Virus record (IMG/VR): IMGVR_UViG_3300049982_000337
Location: 1-64,000 of that record
Direction: 5' to 3' (one strand)
DNA: 64,000 bases
Source: a virus
Taxonomy: Duplodnaviria; Caudoviricetes
Shown here: piece by piece, positions 1-47,037 of the stretch
Numbering within the stretch: position 1 is the stretch's first letter
Layout: every line of letters begins with the position of its first letter
The notes under the pieces: model-generated
The model's input: the letters and a program-made list of their open reading frames with translations, nothing else
Databases searched by the model: none
What the model was told of the DNA's origin: nothing
Made by a program: the position numbers and the translations under genes

Positions 1-1119
1 TCAAACCTGCTTCCGAGGTTTGACAGTGGACGTTCGCTTTTCGCTCTTCTCGACCGCCTTCATGGCCTCGTCGGCGAGTCGTTCCTGATCGACGGCGGCT
101 GTGTAGAGCGTCACCTCGGCAAGGGTCTTGTGGCCAGTGATGGCCTTGATCTGATGGCCTGTGCATCCCGCTTCGGCCAGGCGCCGGGCGCCTGCCTTAC
201 GCAGGCCGTGGGGGGTGGAATTCTCCGGCAGCCCGGCCTCGCTCGCCGCCGCGGTGAACCAATTCGTGAAGCTCGCGGGCTGGAACGGGCCGCCGGTCCT
301 GGTCGTCAGGAACGTCAGGTGGTCGGCCGCCGTCAGCTTGATCGCTTCAGCTAGGCGAGGGTGGAGCGGTATCCAGAGCTTGGTCTGCCCGCCGCCTTTC
401 TGCTGGGCGACGTGGATTTTGCCGCCCCTGATGTGCTGGCGGCCCATCTTGACCACGTCCGAGCGGCGCTGGGCGGTGTAGAGCAGCAGGGCAATGGCGA
501 GGCGTTCGCGCGTGCCGAGCGGCCAGTGCGCCTCGAAGGCCGCGATGTCTTCCTCGGTCCAACTCCTGAAGCCGTCGCTCTTGTTGCGGCTCTTGCGGCG
601 CATCCCCGACATCGGGTTGTCCGGCCGGAAGCCTCGCTCGACCGCGAAGCCCATCAGGATGCGGATCACGCGGCGAAAATTGCCTGCGGTGCCCGGCTTG
701 TCGGAGAACTCGTCGAGGAAGGCCAGGACGTGCTTGGTCTGCATCCCGCCGACGGACTTCTCCCCGAACCGCGCGCGGAATCGCTCGATGGAGTGGCGGT
801 AGACGTAGCGGGTGCTCTCCTCGAGGTTCTTGAACTCGGCGGAGCTGTAATAGGCGACGATCAGGGCGCTCATCGTGCCCGGCTGCGTCCGCTCCAGGCC
901 GATCTGCCGTGCGGGAGCCTGATGCCCATCTAGAGCCGCCTGATAGGCCGCCATGAACTCTGTCGAGCCGGGCAGGCCTGGAAGCGGCGAGCGCTGGGCG
1001 CCGGGCTTGCGGAAATAGTGGCGCGTCTTCCCGTGGCGATCGGTGAACGCCTGGACGTAGCGCAGGCGCAGGATGGTCACGTCAGTCCCAATCATTGGCC
1101 GGCCGGTCTTCGCTGTCAT
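1..1119 (-). CDS. int: Tyrosine recombinase (phage integrase)
   Basis: Catalytic motifs QRRSD (R), HGLRK (H-x-x-R), TGHKT...LYT (H, Y); true start may be slightly downstream of 1119. Confidence 0.95.
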   Translation of the reverse strand: MTAKTGRPMIGTDVTILRLRYVQAFTDRHGKTRHYFRKPGAQRSPLPGLPGSTEFMAAYQAALDGHQAPARQIGLERTQPGTMSALIVAYYSSAEFKNLEESTRYVYRHSIERFRARFGEKSVGGMQTKHVLAFLDEFSDKPGTAGNFRRVIRILMGFAVERGFRPDNPMSGMRRKSRNKSDGFRSWTEEDIAAFEAHWPLGTRERLAIALLLYTAQRRSDVVKMGRQHIRGGKIHVAQQKGGGQTKLWIPLHPRLAEAIKLTAADHLTFLTTRTGGPFQPASFTNWFTAAASEAGLPENSTPHGLRKAGARRLAEAGCTGHQIKAITGHKTLAEVTLYTAAVDQERLADEAMKAVEKSEKRTSTVKPRKQV

Positions 1120-39366: not shown

Positions 39367-41049
39367 ATGGCCACGGCAGCGGAGCGGCTTCACGACCAGG
39401 CGGTCATCCACCGCATCGGCCTGAACCGATATTCGAACGCGCTCGTCCGCAAGATGATGGCGCTGCTCAACCGGATCGAGGTCAACGCGGTCCAGAAGCT
39501 CGCCGACGCCGGCGTCGAGGGCGCGGGGCCCAGACGGCTGAACCAGCTGCTCGACGCAATCCGCGAGATCCAAGCCCAGGGGTGGGCGCAGCTCAAGCCG
39601 GAGCTGATGACCAACCTCGACGGCCTGGCCGCCAACGAGATGGACTTCGCCATGAAGTCCGTCGCCTTCGCCGCGGCCGCCGTCGACGTCGAGCTTGGAG
39701 GCGGCGCCCCGGCGCTGGCCCAGGTGGTCGGCGCCGTCCGCGCCAGGCCGTTCCAGGGCCGGCTCCTTCGGGAATGGCTCAACGGTGAGGAGGAGGGGAC
39801 CAAGAAGCGGGTCCGCGAGGTCATCCGCCAGGGCTTTGTTGAAGGCCAGACCACAGACCAGATCGTGCGCACCTTGCGCGGGACCAAGGCCAACCAGTTC
39901 AAGGACGGCGTGCTCGAACGCTCGCGCCGCGGCCTTGAGGCTATGGTGCACACTGCGGTCACCCACACCTCGACCGTCGCCCACCAGGCCGTCTTCGAGC
40001 AGCACGCCGATGTCGTCACAGGCGTGATCTGGACGTCGACGCTGGACGCCAGGACTACGCTGATCTGCATCTCCCGGTCGGAGAAGGTCTTTCCGATCGA
40101 TAAGGGTCCGCGGCCGCCGGCGCACATCCGGTGCAGGTCGACGATGCGACCGCAGGTCCGCGCGATCGAGGGCGTGGCCCCCATGAAGGTCCAGTCCTAT
40201 CCGGAGTGGCTGGCGAGGCAGCCGGCCGCGGTGCAGGACGACATCCTGGGCTCGGCGCGCGGCGCGCTCTACCGATCCGGGGGCGTGAAGGTTGAAGGGT
40301 TTGTCGATCACGCCGGCAAGACGCTTACGCTCGACCAGCTGCGGAAGCGTGACGACGCTGCGTTCAGGCAGGCGGGGCTCGACCATCCGATTAAGCCCCC
40401 GCCAGGGACGCCAAAGGACGAGATCGTTCGGTTCCTCGCCGACAAGCCGGCACAACGGGCGCTACTGACCAGGTTGATGGGCAGCGGAGCCTCCGGGATC
40501 GAGCTTCATGAGATGGTGGTCGAGGGCGCGATAGAGCGAAATGCCTGGAAGGCCGAGGTCAACGATCTCCTGGCGATCCGCCATTACACCGGCCGCGCCT
40601 ACAAGGCGATCAATCAGCGGATGCGCGAGGAAGGGGGGCTGCTCGAGGACCGCCAGTTCACTGCTCTGGCAGGGCGTGGCATCGAGACCCTGCCGCAGCA
40701 CGAAGGGTCGACTTGGCGCGCGCCTGCCACGCGGGCCGACGTCGCAGACCGCATGTGGGAGCGCTCCATCGTCGGCGAAGACTTTGACATGGGCAATCAC
40801 CTGATCTCCACCTCGTCGTCGCGGGCCTTCGCGGTCGATTGGGGCAGTGCCGGGCGCTTGGTGCTCAAGATCCGGAACCCAAAGGGAGCCTCGGTCGACG
40901 AGGTCTCACTCAACCGCGGGGAGGGTGAAGTTCTCTTGCCCGCAGGAATGCGTTATCGTGTGGTGCGCAAGAGCGAAGAAAACCTGCCAGGGCAGTCTGG
41001 CGCGCTTCGGAATGTGCGCCTGGTGGAGCTGGAGATCATCGAGCCGTGA
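39367..41049 (+). CDS. MuF (SPP1 gp7-like) head morphogenesis protein fused to a C-terminal ADP-ribosyltransferase domain
   Basis: MuF: VHTAVTH...WTSTLDARTTLIC...PPAHIRCRS; ART: YTG.AY..IN..MR, TWR, ISTSS, EGEVLLP. Confidence 0.88.
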   Translation: MATAAERLHDQAVIHRIGLNRYSNALVRKMMALLNRIEVNAVQKLADAGVEGAGPRRLNQLLDAIREIQAQGWAQLKPELMTNLDGLAANEMDFAMKSVAFAAAAVDVELGGGAPALAQVVGAVRARPFQGRLLREWLNGEEEGTKKRVREVIRQGFVEGQTTDQIVRTLRGTKANQFKDGVLERSRRGLEAMVHTAVTHTSTVAHQAVFEQHADVVTGVIWTSTLDARTTLICISRSEKVFPIDKGPRPPAHIRCRSTMRPQVRAIEGVAPMKVQSYPEWLARQPAAVQDDILGSARGALYRSGGVKVEGFVDHAGKTLTLDQLRKRDDAAFRQAGLDHPIKPPPGTPKDEIVRFLADKPAQRALLTRLMGSGASGIELHEMVVEGAIERNAWKAEVNDLLAIRHYTGRAYKAINQRMREEGGLLEDRQFTALAGRGIETLPQHEGSTWRAPATRADVADRMWERSIVGEDFDMGNHLISTSSSRAFAVDWGSAGRLVLKIRNPKGASVDEVSLNRGEGEVLLPAGMRYRVVRKSEENLPGQSGALRNVRLVELEIIEP

Positions 41050-42933: not shown

Positions 42934-44103
42934 ATGGGCACGCTTACCCTTACGAACCTCATTGGCCCGATTTACGAGGCCTTCGACGTCGTCTCCCGCG
43001 AGCGCGTCGGGTTCATCCCCGCCGTTTCGCAGGACTTCAGCGCCGAACGCGCCGCTGTCGGCCAGCTGATCACCTCGCCTGTCGTCGGCCAGATGCCGGC
43101 CGAAGACCTCACCCCCGCCGCTGCTTCGGGCGACACCCCGAACCAGACCGTCGGCACTGTGCAGATGACCATCTCCAAGGCTCGCTCGGTGCCGTTCGGG
43201 ATCACCGGCGAAGAGAACAAGGGTCTGAACAGCGGGGGCAACACGGCCACGATCAACCGTGACCGGATCGCCCAGGCACTGCGGACCCTGACCAACGAGG
43301 TCGAGGTCGACATCTACGAGGAGATGCACAAGACCGTCAGCCGCGGTTACGGCACCGCCGGCACCACGCCGTTCGGCACCAAGGACGACTTCTCTGACTT
43401 TGCCTCCTCGCTCGAAATCCTCGACGAGAACGGGGCGCCCGAGACCGACCGCCACATGGTCCTTGGCTCGGCCGGCATCCGCAACCTGCGCGGCAAGCAG
43501 TCGGGCCTTTTCAAAGCCAATGAAGCAGGCACCGACGAACTGCTGCGTCGCGGCGTGCTCTCCGACATCGAAGGCTTCGGCATTCACCAGTCGGCGGCCA
43601 TCCGCAACGCGGTTACGGCCGGCACGGGCGCCTCGGCCACCACGAACACCACCGGCTATGCGGTCGGCTCCACCGTCATCACCCTGGCCTCGGCTGGGAC
43701 TGGCACGATCCTCGCCGGCGACCTGGTCGCTTTCGCGGGCGACACCCGCAAGTACATGGTGGTGTCCGGTGATGCGGATGTTTCCGGCGGCGGGACCTTC
43801 ACCATCGCTGAACCCGGCCTTCTGAAGGCGATCCCGAACTCTGCAACGGCGATCACCGTCACCGCCGCCGCCGTCCGGAACGTCTTCCTCCACCGCTCGG
43901 CCCTCCAGCTCGCCACCCGCGCGCCGGCCATGCCGGACGAGGGGGATGCTGCTGACGACGTCATGGTCATCAGGGATCCGGTCTCGAAGATCGCCTTCGA
44001 GTTCTGCGTCTACAAGCAGAAGCGCCAGGTCCGTTACGAGGTGAACCTGGCCTGGGGCAAGAAGCTGATCGCCCCGCGCCACGCCGGTCTCCTGCTCGGC
44101 TAA
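42934..44103 (+). CDS. Major capsid protein (P22 coat-like)
   Basis: LTNLIGPIYEAFDVVSRERVGFIPAV...; position after scaffold; strong terminator follows. Confidence 0.9.
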   Translation: MGTLTLTNLIGPIYEAFDVVSRERVGFIPAVSQDFSAERAAVGQLITSPVVGQMPAEDLTPAAASGDTPNQTVGTVQMTISKARSVPFGITGEENKGLNSGGNTATINRDRIAQALRTLTNEVEVDIYEEMHKTVSRGYGTAGTTPFGTKDDFSDFASSLEILDENGAPETDRHMVLGSAGIRNLRGKQSGLFKANEAGTDELLRRGVLSDIEGFGIHQSAAIRNAVTAGTGASATTNTTGYAVGSTVITLASAGTGTILAGDLVAFAGDTRKYMVVSGDADVSGGGTFTIAEPGLLKAIPNSATAITVTAAAVRNVFLHRSALQLATRAPAMPDEGDAADDVMVIRDPVSKIAFEFCVYKQKRQVRYEVNLAWGKKLIAPRHAGLLLG

Positions 44104-44126: not shown

Positions 44127-44156
44127 CAGGGTGGGGCTTCGGCTCCACCCTGTTTT
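44127..44156 (+). terminator. Intrinsic terminator after capsid gene
   Basis: CAGGGTGGGGC-TTCG-GCTCCACCCTG-TTTT. Confidence 0.88.
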
Positions 44157-44206: not shown

Positions 44207-44866
44207 ATGCGCACCATCAACGTGAAGCCCTGGGCCGATGGCCAAGGCGAGTTCGTGATCATCGACGTCGCCAGCTTCAACCCCAAGCTCCACGAGCGGC
44301 TCGACGGCGACGACACGCCGCTTCCGGGCCCCTTCGACGACCACAGCCGCGACCAGCTGATTGACTTGGCCGTCGTCAGCTTCCGCGAGGACATGGCAGG
44401 CCTTTCCGACGACGACCTGCGCCGCGGTCTTGAAGCCCTGGACCGTCGTCGCCAGCGCGAGGCGGAGGGGCCGTTCAATGGCGCCGACCCGGACCTGTTC
44501 GACCACGACGGCGACGGCAAGCCCGGCGGCAGCCTCGGCAACGCTCCCGGCGCCCGCGGCGGCGAGGAACTGGATCGGCCTGATGGCGCGCCGGTTGGCG
44601 AGCAGGTCAGCGGAGCAACCACGGACGGGGTGATCTTGGACCCTGTCGCCGCAAAGGGCCTCACCAAGCAGGAGATCATCGCCGACCTGGAGGGCATGGG
44701 TATCGAGTTCGACCCCAGGGCCGCCAAGGCCGACCTGCTGGCCCTGCGCAATGAAGCCCGCGCCGCGCGCGACGCCCAAGCCACCATCGACGCCGCCGCG
44801 GCAGTCGCCACCCAAGCTGAGATCGACCTGGGCGACGACACCCAGGCGTCCGGCGCCGGCGAGTAG
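44207..44866 (+). CDS. Head-associated protein with HeH/LEM-like C-terminus and DxDxDG motif
   Basis: DLFDHDGDGKPGGS; LTKQEIIADLEGMGIEFDPRAAKADLLAL. Confidence 0.6.
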   Translation: MRTINVKPWADGQGEFVIIDVASFNPKLHERLDGDDTPLPGPFDDHSRDQLIDLAVVSFREDMAGLSDDDLRRGLEALDRRRQREAEGPFNGADPDLFDHDGDGKPGGSLGNAPGARGGEELDRPDGAPVGEQVSGATTDGVILDPVAAKGLTKQEIIADLEGMGIEFDPRAAKADLLALRNEARAARDAQATIDAAAAVATQAEIDLGDDTQASGAGE

Positions 44867-44895: not shown

Positions 44896-45210
44896 ATGAC
44901 CGTCCACGTCCTCTTCATGTCCACCCGCGGGATCGGGTCTGTCGATTCCCCCGGCCTTGGAACCGTCCGCCTACGTGAGGTGGTCACCGTGCCTGGCGTA
45001 ACCGACGGCCAGGCCGAGGAAGGCGAGATCGTCATGGTCGTCAACGAAGAGGCGACCTCCATCCTCGTGGCGCACGGCCTGGATCCTGATGCCTCGACCC
45101 TGGAGCGCACCGAAGCAAGCAGCGCAGGGTTCCCCGTTCCGGCCGCTCGCTACAGCATGCCCATCGTCACCGGCCGCGGCGACAAGGTCAGCATCAAGGC
45201 GATGGCGTAG
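44896..45210 (+). CDS. Hypothetical beta-rich virion-region protein
   Basis: 104 aa between head and neck genes. Confidence 0.6.
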   Translation: MTVHVLFMSTRGIGSVDSPGLGTVRLREVVTVPGVTDGQAEEGEIVMVVNEEATSILVAHGLDPDASTLERTEASSAGFPVPAARYSMPIVTGRGDKVSIKAMA

Positions 45211-45213
45211 GCC

Positions 45214-46509
45214 ATGCTGGAGTTCCTGACCCCGCTGCTGGCCCAGCAGCAGATCGCCATCGGAATGATCGGCGCCACCTTCGTCGGCGCGCTGGTCTAT
45301 TCGCTGAAGGCACTGCCGTCCAACCTCTGGGCGGTGCTGCGCGAGCAGTTCAGCGTCACCCTCGCGGTCGAGGGCCAGGACCTCATCTATGACCACCTGA
45401 ACCTGTGGTTCTCCCGTCACCAGGCGGTCAAGCGCGTCCGTCGGATGATGCTGCAGCAGGAGTTCGACTACGACCGCAGCGACTGGCGCTGGAAGTTCAC
45501 CCTGGGCAGGGGGTGGCACCTGATCTGGACCCACGGCCGTCCGATGCTCGTCCACCGCGACGTCAGCGAGGGCGGCGAGATCGCCAAGCTGCTGGGGAAG
45601 GGGACCAATCAGCGGATGTCGGTGATCACCATCGGCCGCGACCAGGCGCTGCTCCGCCGGATCGTGGAGGAGGCCGAGGAGATCTACAACTCCGACGGCC
45701 ACGTCCGCATCTACTACTGGAACCAGAGCGGCTATGACCTGGCCGACCGCCGGCCGCCGCGGTCCATGGACACCGTCTTCCTGCCGGACGCCCAGAAGCG
45801 CCGCCTCATCGCCGATGTCCGTGCCTTCACCGAGGCCAAGGCCGCCTATCGCGAGCGCGGCACGCCCTATCGTCGCGGCTACCTGTTCGAGGGTCCGCCC
45901 GGCACCGGCAAGACCAGCCTGATCTTCGCCCTGGCCGGCCTGCTCGGCCGCGCCGTGTTCGTGATCAACCTCAGCAACGTCCATGGGGACAACGCCTTGC
46001 TGGCCGCCTTCAACGCGGTCGGCAATGACGGCGTGGTGGTGATCGAGGACATCGACACCGCCGAGATCACCAAGGACCGTGAGGTGGTCGCTGTTCAGCA
46101 GGCCGAACAGCAGTCCAATGGTGGTGGCCCGCCTATGCTCATGGGGGCTCAGTCAGGCCGCGTCACCCTGAGCGGTCTGCTCAACGCCATCGACGGCGTC
46201 GCCGCTCGCGAAGGCCGGATCCTCTTCGTCACCTCGAACCACGCCAGCGAGCTCGACCCTGCGCTGCTACGCAGTGGCCGCATCGACCGCCGCGAGACCA
46301 TCGACCGTCTGGACGCCGATACGGCCTGGGCGATGTTCCAGGCGTTCCGGCCCGACGGCGCGCACGCCGATTTTGAGCGCCTTGTCCTGCCCCGGCTCCC
46401 CATCGCCGCAGCCGACCTGCAGAACCTGTTGCAGGCCGCCGACGACGGCGCAGAGGTCATAACCTTGCACCCTGCCGGCGAAACCCGGCGGGCCGCTCTG
46501 GGAGCCTGA
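45214..46509 (+). CDS. Bcs1-like membrane-anchored AAA+ ATPase
   Basis: N-terminal TM, Bcs1-N-like region, PRSMDTVFL...YRRGYLFEGPPGTGKTS, VVVIEDID, VTLSGLLNAIDGV, VTSNH..ELDPALLRSGRID. Confidence 0.85.
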   Translation: MLEFLTPLLAQQQIAIGMIGATFVGALVYSLKALPSNLWAVLREQFSVTLAVEGQDLIYDHLNLWFSRHQAVKRVRRMMLQQEFDYDRSDWRWKFTLGRGWHLIWTHGRPMLVHRDVSEGGEIAKLLGKGTNQRMSVITIGRDQALLRRIVEEAEEIYNSDGHVRIYYWNQSGYDLADRRPPRSMDTVFLPDAQKRRLIADVRAFTEAKAAYRERGTPYRRGYLFEGPPGTGKTSLIFALAGLLGRAVFVINLSNVHGDNALLAAFNAVGNDGVVVIEDIDTAEITKDREVVAVQQAEQQSNGGGPPMLMGAQSGRVTLSGLLNAIDGVAAREGRILFVTSNHASELDPALLRSGRIDRRETIDRLDADTAWAMFQAFRPDGAHADFERLVLPRLPIAAADLQNLLQAADDGAEVITLHPAGETRRAALGA

Positions 46510-46512
46510 GAC

Positions 46513-47037
46513 ATGGCGCTGATCGTCGAGGACGGCACCGGCCGGCCGGACTCTGAGGCCTACCGCTCTGTCGCCGATCACAGGACCTATTGCGCGGCAC
46601 GCGGCATCGATCTGGGCAGCCTGAGCGATACAGACCTCGAACAGGACGCCCGAGTGGCGACCGACTTCATGGTGCAGAGTTTCCGCTATCGTTGGGCCGG
46701 TGAGCGCGCCACGAATACCCAGGCTCTCGACTTCCCCCGTCACCTGATCCCGATCAAGGACGGGCCCGGATCCTTCGCCTCGACCGTGACCTACTACCCG
46801 CACGACCGGGTGCCGACTGAGGTCGGCAACGCCCAGTCCGAGCTGATGAACCGGGCTCGCGCTGGCGCGCTGGCGCCTGACCAGACCAGGGCGATCATCA
46901 CCGAGACGACCGGCCCGATCACCACGACCTACGACAAGAACTCGCCCGAGGCGCCGCGATACCGCGCCGTCCACATGATGCTCCGGCCTTTCCTGAAGAA
47001 CGGCGGGGCAGGGACAGTCGGCGTGGTGCGCTGTTGA
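46513..47037 (+). CDS. Head-tail adaptor (annotated family 'DnaT-like')
   Basis: MALIVEDGTG...AY.SVAD...RGI...WAG.R...QALDFPR...VP.EV..AQ.EL. Confidence 0.8.
   Translation: MALIVEDGTGRPDSEAYRSVADHRTYCAARGIDLGSLSDTDLEQDARVATDFMVQSFRYRWAGERATNTQALDFPRHLIPIKDGPGSFASTVTYYPHDRVPTEVGNAQSELMNRARAGALAPDQTRAIITETTGPITTTYDKNSPEAPRYRAVHMMLRPFLKNGGAGTVGVVRC

What the first reader, a model, noticed from the sequence alone, without database searches (positions are those of the whole stretch)
45214..46509. Mitochondrial Bcs1-like AAA+ translocase embedded in the head-neck module
Seen: one N-terminal TM, a ~170-aa linker domain and a single AAA module with Bcs1-type signatures (PRSMDTV.L, YRRGYL..GPPGTGKTS, EDID, VTLSGLLNAIDGV, T.NH...LDPALLR.GRID). 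It sits between head genes and the head-tail adaptor with phage-like codon usage. Known: mitochondrial Bcs1 is a membrane AAA ring that translocates the folded Rieske protein, a job bacteria give to Tat. Inference: a late-expressed phage membrane ATPase that moves or extracts a folded substrate across the inner membrane (morphogenesis, superinfection exclusion, or host respiratory remodelling); the upstream 104-aa ORF could be a partner or substrate. This is not a standard lambdoid gene.
Basis: partly seen in the sequence, partly recalled or inferred. Interest (0 to 1): 0.75.

Follow-up and report, generated by a model that had tools for sequence, protein, structure and literature searches.

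The report
Phage-borne Bcs1-type membrane AAA ATPase
A prophage of a Caulobacter-like bacterium carries a genuine relative of the mitochondrial Bcs1 folded-protein translocase in its late operon, but this family was already known in phages, the gene is a movable accessory gene and not a head-assembly part, and its cargo is probably not the Rieske protein.

Summary
ORF 45214-46509 (+, 431 aa) has a conserved N-terminal membrane helix, a full-length BCS1_N domain and one intact AAA module. It matches mouse Bcs1 over residues 26-385 (E 1.7e-44). Its AlphaFold model superposes on solved Bcs1 (TM 0.72).

It lies between the major capsid gene and the head-tail adaptor, tightly coupled to both neighbours.

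The family is not new in phages. It is PHROG 7485, is annotated in 181 phage records (mostly jumbo phages, including phiKZ gp286), and was discussed by Iyer et al. 2021.

In 17 phage contexts examined, the gene sits in a head module in only 4, at three different sites. No neighbouring gene is conserved. Caulobacter phage DMCA has a collinear head module (capsid protein 76% identical) and no Bcs1 at all. The gene is therefore a dispensable, mobile accessory gene.

The charged residues that yeast Bcs1 uses to grip the Rieske protein are absent from all 40 aligned relatives, so the cargo is probably different.

The 104-aa upstream ORF is not a conserved partner.

Most likely it is an ATP-driven inner-membrane translocase or insertase for an unknown folded cargo. 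This mechanism is inferred, not shown.

The scan had noted this same stretch once before.

The parts
45214..46509 (+). Bcs1-family AAA ATPase gene (431 aa, P0001)
   Evidence: Pfam BCS1_N plus AAA. phrog_7485 at 1.9e-83. Mouse Bcs1 6uko at E 1.7e-44. Foldseek 8tp1_A at E 1.3e-33, TM 0.72/0.74.
45250..45306 (+). N-terminal membrane helix (residues 13-31), with predicted N-terminus outside and C-terminus inside the cell
   Evidence: Gly/Ala-rich hydrophobic window with an equivalent in 40 of 40 homologues. There are 0-1 K/R before it and mostly 2-4 after it. It is part of a long helix, residues 13-46, in the model.
45286..45777 (+). Bcs1-specific middle domain (BCS1_N, residues 25-188)
   Evidence: 63.3 bits, covering the whole profile. 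This part alone finds 432 cluster representatives at E<=0.001 in 1.84 billion proteins, most of them 390-460 aa with the domain at the N-terminus.
45883..46305 (+). AAA cassette (residues 224-364): Walker A GPPGTGKT 227-234, Walker B E278/D279, sensor-1 N342, arginines R353 and R356
   Evidence: All of these residues are invariant in the 40-sequence alignment A1. There is no aromatic pore-loop motif between Walker A and Walker B.
44896..45210 (+). 104-aa ORF upstream; its stop codon lies 3 nt before the Bcs1 start
   Evidence: No Pfam or PHROG hit. It is 45% identical to the ORF at the same place in L004 and has no match in the parts held of the other Bcs1 loci compared (L002-L007). Atlas look-alikes are widespread phage families of about 100 aa, and its structural look-alikes with a family name are beta-rich domains. 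Probably an ordinary head-module gene.
44207..44866 (+). 219-aa ORF after the capsid gene
   Evidence: The N-terminal half is conserved in L004, L003 and phage DMCA. The C-terminus gives weak PHROG hits labelled Arc-like repressor.
44127..44152 (+). Terminator-like hairpin just after the capsid gene
   Evidence: 11-bp stem with 8 G-C pairs followed by TTTTCT. Genes downstream, including Bcs1, would be read by read-through at a lower level (inferred).
42934..44103 (+). Major capsid protein (P22-coat-like)
   Evidence: phrog_283 at 1.7e-95; Pfam P22_CoatProtein.
46513..47037 (+). Head-tail adaptor Ad1; its start lies 3 nt after the Bcs1 stop
   Evidence: phrog_477 at 1.8e-41; Pfam DnaT_2.

Best explanation
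The gene encodes a real Bcs1-family ATPase. It has a short N-terminus facing the periplasm, one membrane helix, a cytoplasmic Bcs1-specific middle domain and one AAA cassette.

It is a non-essential, mobile accessory gene of phages. Here it has landed in the late operon between the capsid gene and the adaptor, and it is co-transcribed with them during lytic growth.

By analogy with mitochondrial Bcs1, it most likely forms a ring in the host inner membrane. ATP binding would then squeeze a folded protein domain from a cytoplasmic vestibule through a gated seal into or across the membrane, without unfolding it and without needing the proton-motive force.

The cargo is unknown. It is probably not the Rieske protein and probably not the neighbouring 104-aa protein.

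Shown: family membership, anchor, intact ATPase motifs, fold, mobility, and dispensability for this head type. Inferred: ring assembly, translocase activity, direction of transport and the nature of the cargo.
For: - Identity: Pfam BCS1_N plus AAA. Full-length match to mouse Bcs1, residues 26-385, E 1.7e-44. The model has pLDDT 88.7. The top 13 Foldseek hits are all Bcs1 structures, the best at TM 0.72/0.74 over 414 columns.
- Anchor and topology: a hydrophobic helix in 40 of 40 homologues, with K/R mostly on its C-terminal side.
- Active ATPase: K233, E278, D279, N342, R353 and R356 are invariant.
- Not a threading unfoldase: there is no aromatic pore-loop motif, as in Bcs1.
- Accessory and mobile: head module in 4 of 17 contexts, at three sites; early or replication regions in the rest. 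The window's protein groups with L003 and L004 (support 93/98), and its nearest row is L003, which has the gene at a different site. No conserved neighbour.
- Dispensable: phage DMCA has a collinear head-tail module (capsid protein 76%, portal 54%, tube 51% identical) and no Bcs1.
- A phage gene rather than a cellular one: BCS1_N was found in 2 of 401 alphaproteobacterial genomes, one of them the seed genome that already held it and the other a weak, interrupted match, and in 0 of 14 control genomes.
- Different cargo: the yeast EWR and DDR contacts are not kept.
- Operon embedding: 3-nt gaps to both neighbours.
Against: - No experiment shows translocation by any phage Bcs1.
- The heptamer could not be modelled because of the size limit.
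- No candidate cargo emerged from gene neighbourhoods.
- The only experimental datum found for a phage homologue is for phiKZ gp286, which is 22.6% identical. It places that protein with the 70S ribosome stalk in co-fractionation and cross-linking (PMC10449902), which a translocase model does not predict.
- The membrane helix is only moderately hydrophobic (1.69).
- B. subtilis YjoB (deposited as an uncharacterized ATPase) is the next-best fold match.
Confidence: 0.5

Rival explanations
1. Head-morphogenesis factor. A membrane-proximal assembly chaperone would bind folded proteins and load them into the procapsid, or tether portal and procapsid assembly to the membrane. This is the proposal of Iyer et al. 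2021 for jumbo phages, and one option named by the first reader.
For: The gene lies inside head modules in the window, L004, L003 and L005. These cover three insertion sites and two unrelated head types (P22-coat/MuF and HK97/S78 protease). It is co-transcribed with head genes. The proposal is published (PMC7824862).
Against: In 13 of 17 contexts the gene lies in early, replication or uncharacterised non-structural regions. Phage DMCA has the same head module and no Bcs1. The gene does not track the MuF-toxin fusion: L003 has a plain MuF and still has Bcs1. The Bcs1 topology moves cargo away from the cytoplasm, where heads are built (inference from the mitochondrial mechanism).
Confidence: 0.12
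2. A cytoplasm-facing remodeller and not a translocase. A membrane-tethered AAA chaperone would act on host complexes. Examples are ribosomes (as reported for phiKZ gp286), extraction of host membrane proteins for host takeover or counter-defence, or superinfection exclusion.
For: phiKZ gp286 is a true family member (BCS1_N 43.7 bits plus AAA). It co-fractionated with the 70S ribosome and cross-linked to the proteins rplL, rplK and rplJ, which that paper calls the L1 stalk (PMC10449902). The second-best structural family is B. subtilis YjoB. The gene often lies among early genes next to methylases and ParB-like genes.
Against: A large ring would co-elute with megadalton complexes anyway, and gp286 is very distant (22.6% identity, with a large insert in its AAA domain). 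The membrane helix and the whole Bcs1 middle domain, which forms the seal in Bcs1, are conserved across the family. That conservation is hard to explain without a membrane-gating role.
Confidence: 0.22
3. A translocase for the host Rieske iron-sulfur protein. As an auxiliary respiratory gene, the phage enzyme would replace or boost Tat-dependent assembly of the host cytochrome bc1 complex.
For: This is the only known Bcs1 function. The likely host is a Caulobacter-type alphaproteobacterium (closest phage relatives infect Caulobacter and Brevundimonas). Such hosts have bc1 and export the Rieske protein by Tat (established knowledge).
Against: The Rieske-contact residues of yeast Bcs1 are not conserved. 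Across 40 sequences the E212 equivalent is hydrophobic (E in 0 of 40), the R214 equivalent is R in 2 of 40, and the R302 equivalent is G/A/D/E or another residue (R in 0 of 40). E212A and R302A are lethal in yeast under respiratory conditions. The matching acidic patch is absent from prokaryotic Rieske proteins (PMC12219900). Full-length homologues occur in phages of Erwinia, Klebsiella, Cronobacter and Salmonella, whose hosts lack a bc1 complex (established knowledge).
Confidence: 0.06
4. A prophage-encoded defence or abortive-infection gene, expressed in the lysogen to protect it from other phages.
For: It behaves like a moron, with variable position and patchy distribution. In some relatives it has its own intergenic spacers or lies next to the integrase.
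Against: There is no PADLOC family match, only weak P-loop-region hits to TRIP13 and IetA. Here it lies inside the late operon with 3-nt gaps and no sigma-70-type promoter-like site. The family is commonest in large, mostly jumbo, phages isolated on cultured hosts.
Confidence: 0.07

Closest known systems
Mitochondrial Bcs1 / BCS1L (yeast and mouse; PDB 6sh3, 6uko, 8tp1, 9gs2)
   Same: Same domain order: N-terminal membrane helix, Bcs1-specific middle domain and a single AAA cassette. About 27-29% identity over nearly the full length. Same fold (TM 0.72). Intact ATPase motifs. No aromatic pore loop. Same predicted topology.
   Different: It is encoded by a bacteriophage and would sit in a bacterial inner membrane. 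It lacks the E and R residues of the EWR and DDR motifs that bind the Rieske protein. The heptameric state and translocase activity are untested.
Phage Bcs1 homologues: PHROG 7485; Caulobacter phage CcrColossus gp235; Brevundimonas jumbo phages; phiKZ gp286; discussed in Iyer et al. 2021 (PMC7824862)
   Same: Same family and architecture: phrog_7485 at 1.9e-83, 36-41% identity to the Caulobacter and Brevundimonas jumbo-phage proteins, and BCS1_N plus AAA in the homologues of CcrColossus, R26L, KASIA and phiKZ.
   Different: This copy is in a temperate siphovirus-type prophage (integrase at the left end, lysis genes near 66-67 kb of the 75-kb record), not a jumbo phage. It sits inside the head-neck operon, whereas in the cultured phages examined it lies among non-structural genes.
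Bacillus subtilis YjoB (PDB 7w42, 7w46)
   Same: An AAA ATPase with an N-terminal domain that superposes on the model (TM about 0.52-0.56).
   Different: Only 16-17% identity, and Foldseek ranks it below every Bcs1 structure.
FtsH and other classical AAA proteins (Cdc48/p97, proteasomal ATPases)
   Same: They share the classical AAA core.
   Different: The similarity is limited to the AAA cassette. NCBIfam scores are far below the cut-offs (54 against 600 bits for FtsH). There is no protease domain.

Membership tests
Bcs1 family (PF08740 BCS1_N + PF00004 AAA) | Bcs1-specific middle domain scoring above the Pfam gathering threshold | tested here: met
   63.3 bits against a cut-off of 28.1; covers profile positions 2-182 of 182.
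Bcs1 family (PF08740 BCS1_N + PF00004 AAA) | Single N-terminal membrane helix, with the bulk of the protein on the side where ATP is available | tested here: met
   Hydrophobic window at residues 13-31, with an equivalent in 40 of 40 homologues and K/R mostly after it. Helix 13-46 in the model. This is prediction only.
Bcs1 family (PF08740 BCS1_N + PF00004 AAA) | One classical AAA cassette with Walker A, Walker B, sensor 1 and arginine fingers | tested here: met
   K233, E278, D279, N342, R353 and R356 are invariant in alignment A1.
Bcs1 family (PF08740 BCS1_N + PF00004 AAA) | Full-length structural match to solved Bcs1 | tested here: met
   8tp1_A at E 1.3e-33, TM 0.72/0.74, 414 columns; ranks 1-13 are all Bcs1.
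Bcs1 family (PF08740 BCS1_N + PF00004 AAA) | No canonical aromatic pore-loop-1 motif (cargo is not threaded) | tested here: met
   The segment between Walker A and Walker B has no aromatic-hydrophobic-Gly motif. It aligns with the Bcs1 pore-loop-1/DDR region.
Bcs1 family (PF08740 BCS1_N + PF00004 AAA) | Homo-heptameric ring with two vestibules | not testable with these tools
   Seven copies (3017 residues) exceed the 1000-residue limit of the complex predictor; no job was sent.
Bcs1 as Rieske-protein translocase (functional orthology) | Conserved EWR (yeast E212-R214) and DDR (D300-R302) substrate-contact motifs | tested here: not met
   Only the W (34 of 40) and the first D (40 of 40) are kept. 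E is present in 0 of 40, the R214 equivalent is R in 2 of 40, and the R302 equivalent is R in 0 of 40.
Bcs1 as Rieske-protein translocase (functional orthology) | Requirement for cytochrome bc1 assembly | not testable with these tools
   This needs genetics or biochemistry. Homologues in phages of hosts that lack bc1 argue against it.
PHROG 7485 (phage protein family of unknown function) | Full-length profile match | tested here: met
   E 1.9e-83; residues 3-406 against profile positions 10-398 of 430.
Core head-morphogenesis gene of this phage type | Conserved presence and position in related head modules | tested here: not met
   Absent from phage DMCA, which has a collinear head module. At a different site in L003. 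Outside structural modules in 13 of 17 contexts.
Known anti-phage defence ATPases (PADLOC: TRIP13, IetA) | Full-length match to a defence-system profile | tested here: not met
   Only partial hits of E about 1e-6 to residues about 172-253, the P-loop region.

The most novel reading that the evidence does not exclude
Phage Bcs1 proteins are working ATP-driven exporters of folded proteins in bacterial inner membranes. That would be a route independent of Tat and of the proton-motive force, used by phages for their own cargo. The mitochondrial Bcs1 would then descend from such a gene carried by a phage or prophage of the alphaproteobacterial ancestor. BCS1_N is nearly absent from the cellular alphaproteobacterial genomes sampled yet widespread in their phages.
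Probability: 0.15. Interest if true: 0.85.

Novelty: new member of a known kind. Interest (0 to 1): 0.38.

Why it matters
No phage Bcs1 has a demonstrated function, although the family is spread across jumbo phages, temperate phages and giant viruses.

A copy in a mid-sized temperate prophage of a Caulobacter-type host would be far easier to study than one in a jumbo phage. The host group is genetically tractable, and a Bcs1-free sister phage (DMCA) is available for comparison.

Such work could show whether bacteria can host an ATP-driven translocase for folded proteins. It could also bear on where the mitochondrial enzyme came from.

As a sequence finding it is a solid annotation, not a surprise.

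Tried and rejected
- The genome-contig scan with alignment A1 was swamped by FtsH-type AAA genes, because the tool picked generic AAA motifs. Only L012 was a true homologue. The two viral-contig scans were limited in the same way. No systematic census of contexts was therefore possible, and contexts were sampled one at a time instead.
- I sought named eukaryotic Bcs1 sequences by querying with a giant-virus relative. This returned only unnamed giant-virus AAA proteins without BCS1_N. No tree against eukaryotic Bcs1 could be built.
- A conserved partner gene was sought among the ORFs immediately upstream and downstream and among all ORFs within 8 kb in 12 loci. None was found.
- A link to the MuF-ADP-ribosyltransferase head protein was rejected. 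L003 has Bcs1 and a plain MuF.
- A role in lysis was considered unlikely. The record has a small membrane-protein ORF overlapping the start of a GH108 endolysin gene near 65.8-66.7 kb, which looks like an ordinary holin-endolysin pair.
- No complex-prediction job was sent. A heptamer is too large, and a 1:1 test with the 104-aa ORF would not mimic binding inside a ring.
- Literature searches for CcrColossus with BCS1, and for Bcs1-like proteins in conflict systems, found nothing relevant.

Full report
**Observation.** The ORF at 45214-46509 (+) is open and encodes 431 aa. Pfam finds a complete BCS1_N domain (E 3.7e-17, 63.3 bits against a cut-off of 28.1, residues 25-188) followed by one AAA domain (E 1.2e-15, residues 224-364). 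The protein matches mouse Bcs1 over residues 26-385 at E 1.7e-44, well ahead of Cdc48/p97 at about 1e-19. An AlphaFold model built on 40 homologues has mean pLDDT 88.7. Its 13 best Foldseek matches in the PDB are all Bcs1 structures, led by 8tp1_A (E 1.3e-33, TM 0.72/0.74, 414 columns). B. subtilis YjoB is the next family.

**Anchor and ATPase.** Residues 13-31 form a Gly/Ala-rich hydrophobic stretch. An equivalent stretch occurs in all 40 aligned homologues, with 0-1 K/R before it and mostly 2-4 after it. This predicts the N-terminus outside and the rest inside the cell, as in mitochondrial Bcs1. Walker A K233, Walker B E278/D279, sensor-1 N342 and arginines R353 and R356 are invariant. There is no aromatic pore-loop motif.

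**Setting.** The window is prophage from its first base:
- an integrase at 1-1119 (-);
- recombination, methylase and DnaB genes;
- the late operon, with small and large terminase, portal, a MuF protein with an ADP-ribosyltransferase tail, scaffold, capsid protein, the 219-aa and 104-aa ORFs, Bcs1, adaptor, head closure, neck, tail terminator, tube, chaperone and tape measure.

The source is an IMG/VR provirus record of 75 kb. A terminator-like hairpin follows the capsid gene (44127-44152). Bcs1 starts 3 nt after the stop of the 104-aa ORF and ends 3 nt before the adaptor start. Its codon-position GC matches its neighbours. It is therefore a settled, co-transcribed late gene in this phage.

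**Is the family new in phages? No.** The protein matches PHROG 7485 at 1.9e-83. tblastn finds relatives in 181 phage records, mostly jumbo phages of Pseudomonas, Erwinia, Serratia, Klebsiella, Brevundimonas, Ralstonia and Caulobacter. CcrColossus gp235 is annotated as an AAA+ ATPase and BCS1 domain protein. phiKZ gp286 is also a member (BCS1_N 43.7 bits). Iyer et al. 2021 noted BCS1 orthologues in all three major jumbo-phage groups. They proposed that these act in membrane-proximal assembly, translocating folded proteins packaged into the head (PMC7824862). The N-terminal part alone retrieves 432 cluster representatives from 1.84 billion proteins, most of them 390-460 aa. In contrast, BCS1_N was found in only 2 of 401 sampled alphaproteobacterial genomes (one is the seed genome, the other a weak, interrupted match) and in none of 14 control genomes. 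In bacteria this looks like essentially a phage gene.

**Is it part of the head machinery?** I looked at 17 contexts.
- Head modules, 4 contexts at three sites: capsid-adaptor in the window and L004; portal-MuF in L003; portal-S78 protease in L005, which has an unrelated HK97-type head.
- Early, replication-modification or early-late junction regions, 8 metagenomic temperate-type contigs.
- Non-structural regions, 5 cultured phages: R26L, RXM, KASIA, CcrColossus and Bajun.

In a maximum-likelihood tree the window groups with L003 and L004 (support 93/98). Its nearest relative is L003, where the gene sits at a different site. The next nearest rows are early-region copies. Caulobacter phage DMCA infects C. 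vibrioides CB15 and has a collinear head-tail module (capsid protein 76%, portal 54%, adaptor 46%, tube 51% identical). It has no Bcs1 anywhere in its 51.8 kb. The gene is thus mobile and dispensable for this head type.

**Partners.** The 104-aa ORF is shared only with L004. Its Atlas look-alikes are common phage families of about 100 aa, and its structural look-alikes that carry a family name are beta-rich domains (a lead only). Immediate neighbours elsewhere are unrelated. No family other than Bcs1 itself is shared by more than 3 of 12 loci within 8 kb. Bcs1 does not track the MuF-toxin fusion.

**Cargo.** Yeast Bcs1 holds the folded Rieske domain through the EWR (E212-R214) and DDR (D300-R302) motifs. 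E212A, D300A and R302A are lethal under respiratory conditions. The matching acidic patch is absent from prokaryotic Rieske proteins (PMC12219900). In the 40 phage and prophage sequences:
- the tryptophan is kept in 34 of 40 and the first aspartate in 40 of 40;
- the glutamate position is hydrophobic (E in 0 of 40);
- the R214 position is H, S or N (R in 2 of 40);
- the R302 position is G, A, D or E (R in 0 of 40).

Full-length homologues also occur in phages of enterobacteria, which lack a bc1 complex (established knowledge). A Rieske-directed role is therefore unlikely. The record carries what looks like an ordinary holin-endolysin pair, so a lysis role is not needed either.

**Experimental lead.** The only data found for any phage homologue concern phiKZ gp286. 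It was detected during infection, co-fractionated with the 70S ribosome, and cross-linked to ribosomal stalk proteins (PMC10449902). gp286 is distant (22.6% identity over residues 30-289) and carries a large insert. A large ring would co-elute with big complexes in any case. I keep this as a rival reading.

**Verdict.** This is a confirmed, well-formed Bcs1-family ATPase and a new member of a phage family that is already known.
- Best reading, about 50%: an accessory, ATP-driven inner-membrane translocase or insertase for an unknown folded cargo.
- Rivals: a cytoplasm-facing remodeller (about 22%), a head-assembly factor (about 12%), a defence gene (about 7%), and a Rieske translocase (about 6%).

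A phylogeny against eukaryotic Bcs1 could not be made with the sequences available.

Noticed in passing
window 39367-41049 (+): The MuF head-morphogenesis protein carries a C-terminal ADP-ribosyltransferase domain (Pfam Phage_Mu_F plus ADPrib_exo_Tox). The same fusion is present in L004. It is absent from L003 and from phage DMCA, whose MuF proteins are shorter.
   Followed up: partly
L163 2890-4416 (phiKZ gp286): phiKZ gp286 is a Bcs1-family protein with an insert of roughly 110 aa inside its AAA domain. A published proteomics study links it to the ribosomal stalk (PMC10449902). The Bcs1 relationship is not mentioned in the passages of that paper that I read.
   Followed up: partly
L162 (Caulobacter phage DMCA, PQ480021): A cultured phage of C. 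vibrioides CB15 has a head-tail module collinear with the prophage in the window, but only one 138-aa gene between the capsid gene and the adaptor. It would be a natural Bcs1-free comparison.
   Followed up: yes
L159 5076-5462: In a related contig, a 128-aa ORF with Pfam Ion_trans_2 (potassium-channel-like) lies about 700 nt upstream of the Bcs1 gene.
   Followed up: no
provirus record 63359-65613 (L161 8359-10613): A beta-helix protein (probably a tail spike) is followed on the opposite strand by an Acyl_transf_3 membrane acyltransferase. This could be a surface-polysaccharide modification gene, that is, a lysogenic conversion gene.
   Followed up: no
window 44207-44866 (+): The 219-aa ORF after the capsid gene has a conserved N-terminal half (also in L003, L004 and DMCA). 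Its C-terminus gives weak PHROG hits labelled Arc-like repressor. It looks to me like a short helix-extension-helix motif.
   Followed up: partly
L154 6693-10247 (CcrColossus gp237-gp242): Downstream of the CcrColossus Bcs1 gene lie several envelope-related genes: a UPF0114 membrane protein, a lipoprotein and a CsgG-like protein.
   Followed up: no
L097, L100, L102, L124 (giant-virus MAG contigs): Giant-virus contigs encode proteins of 480-530 aa related to the AAA part of the query. Pfam does not detect BCS1_N in them.
   Followed up: partly
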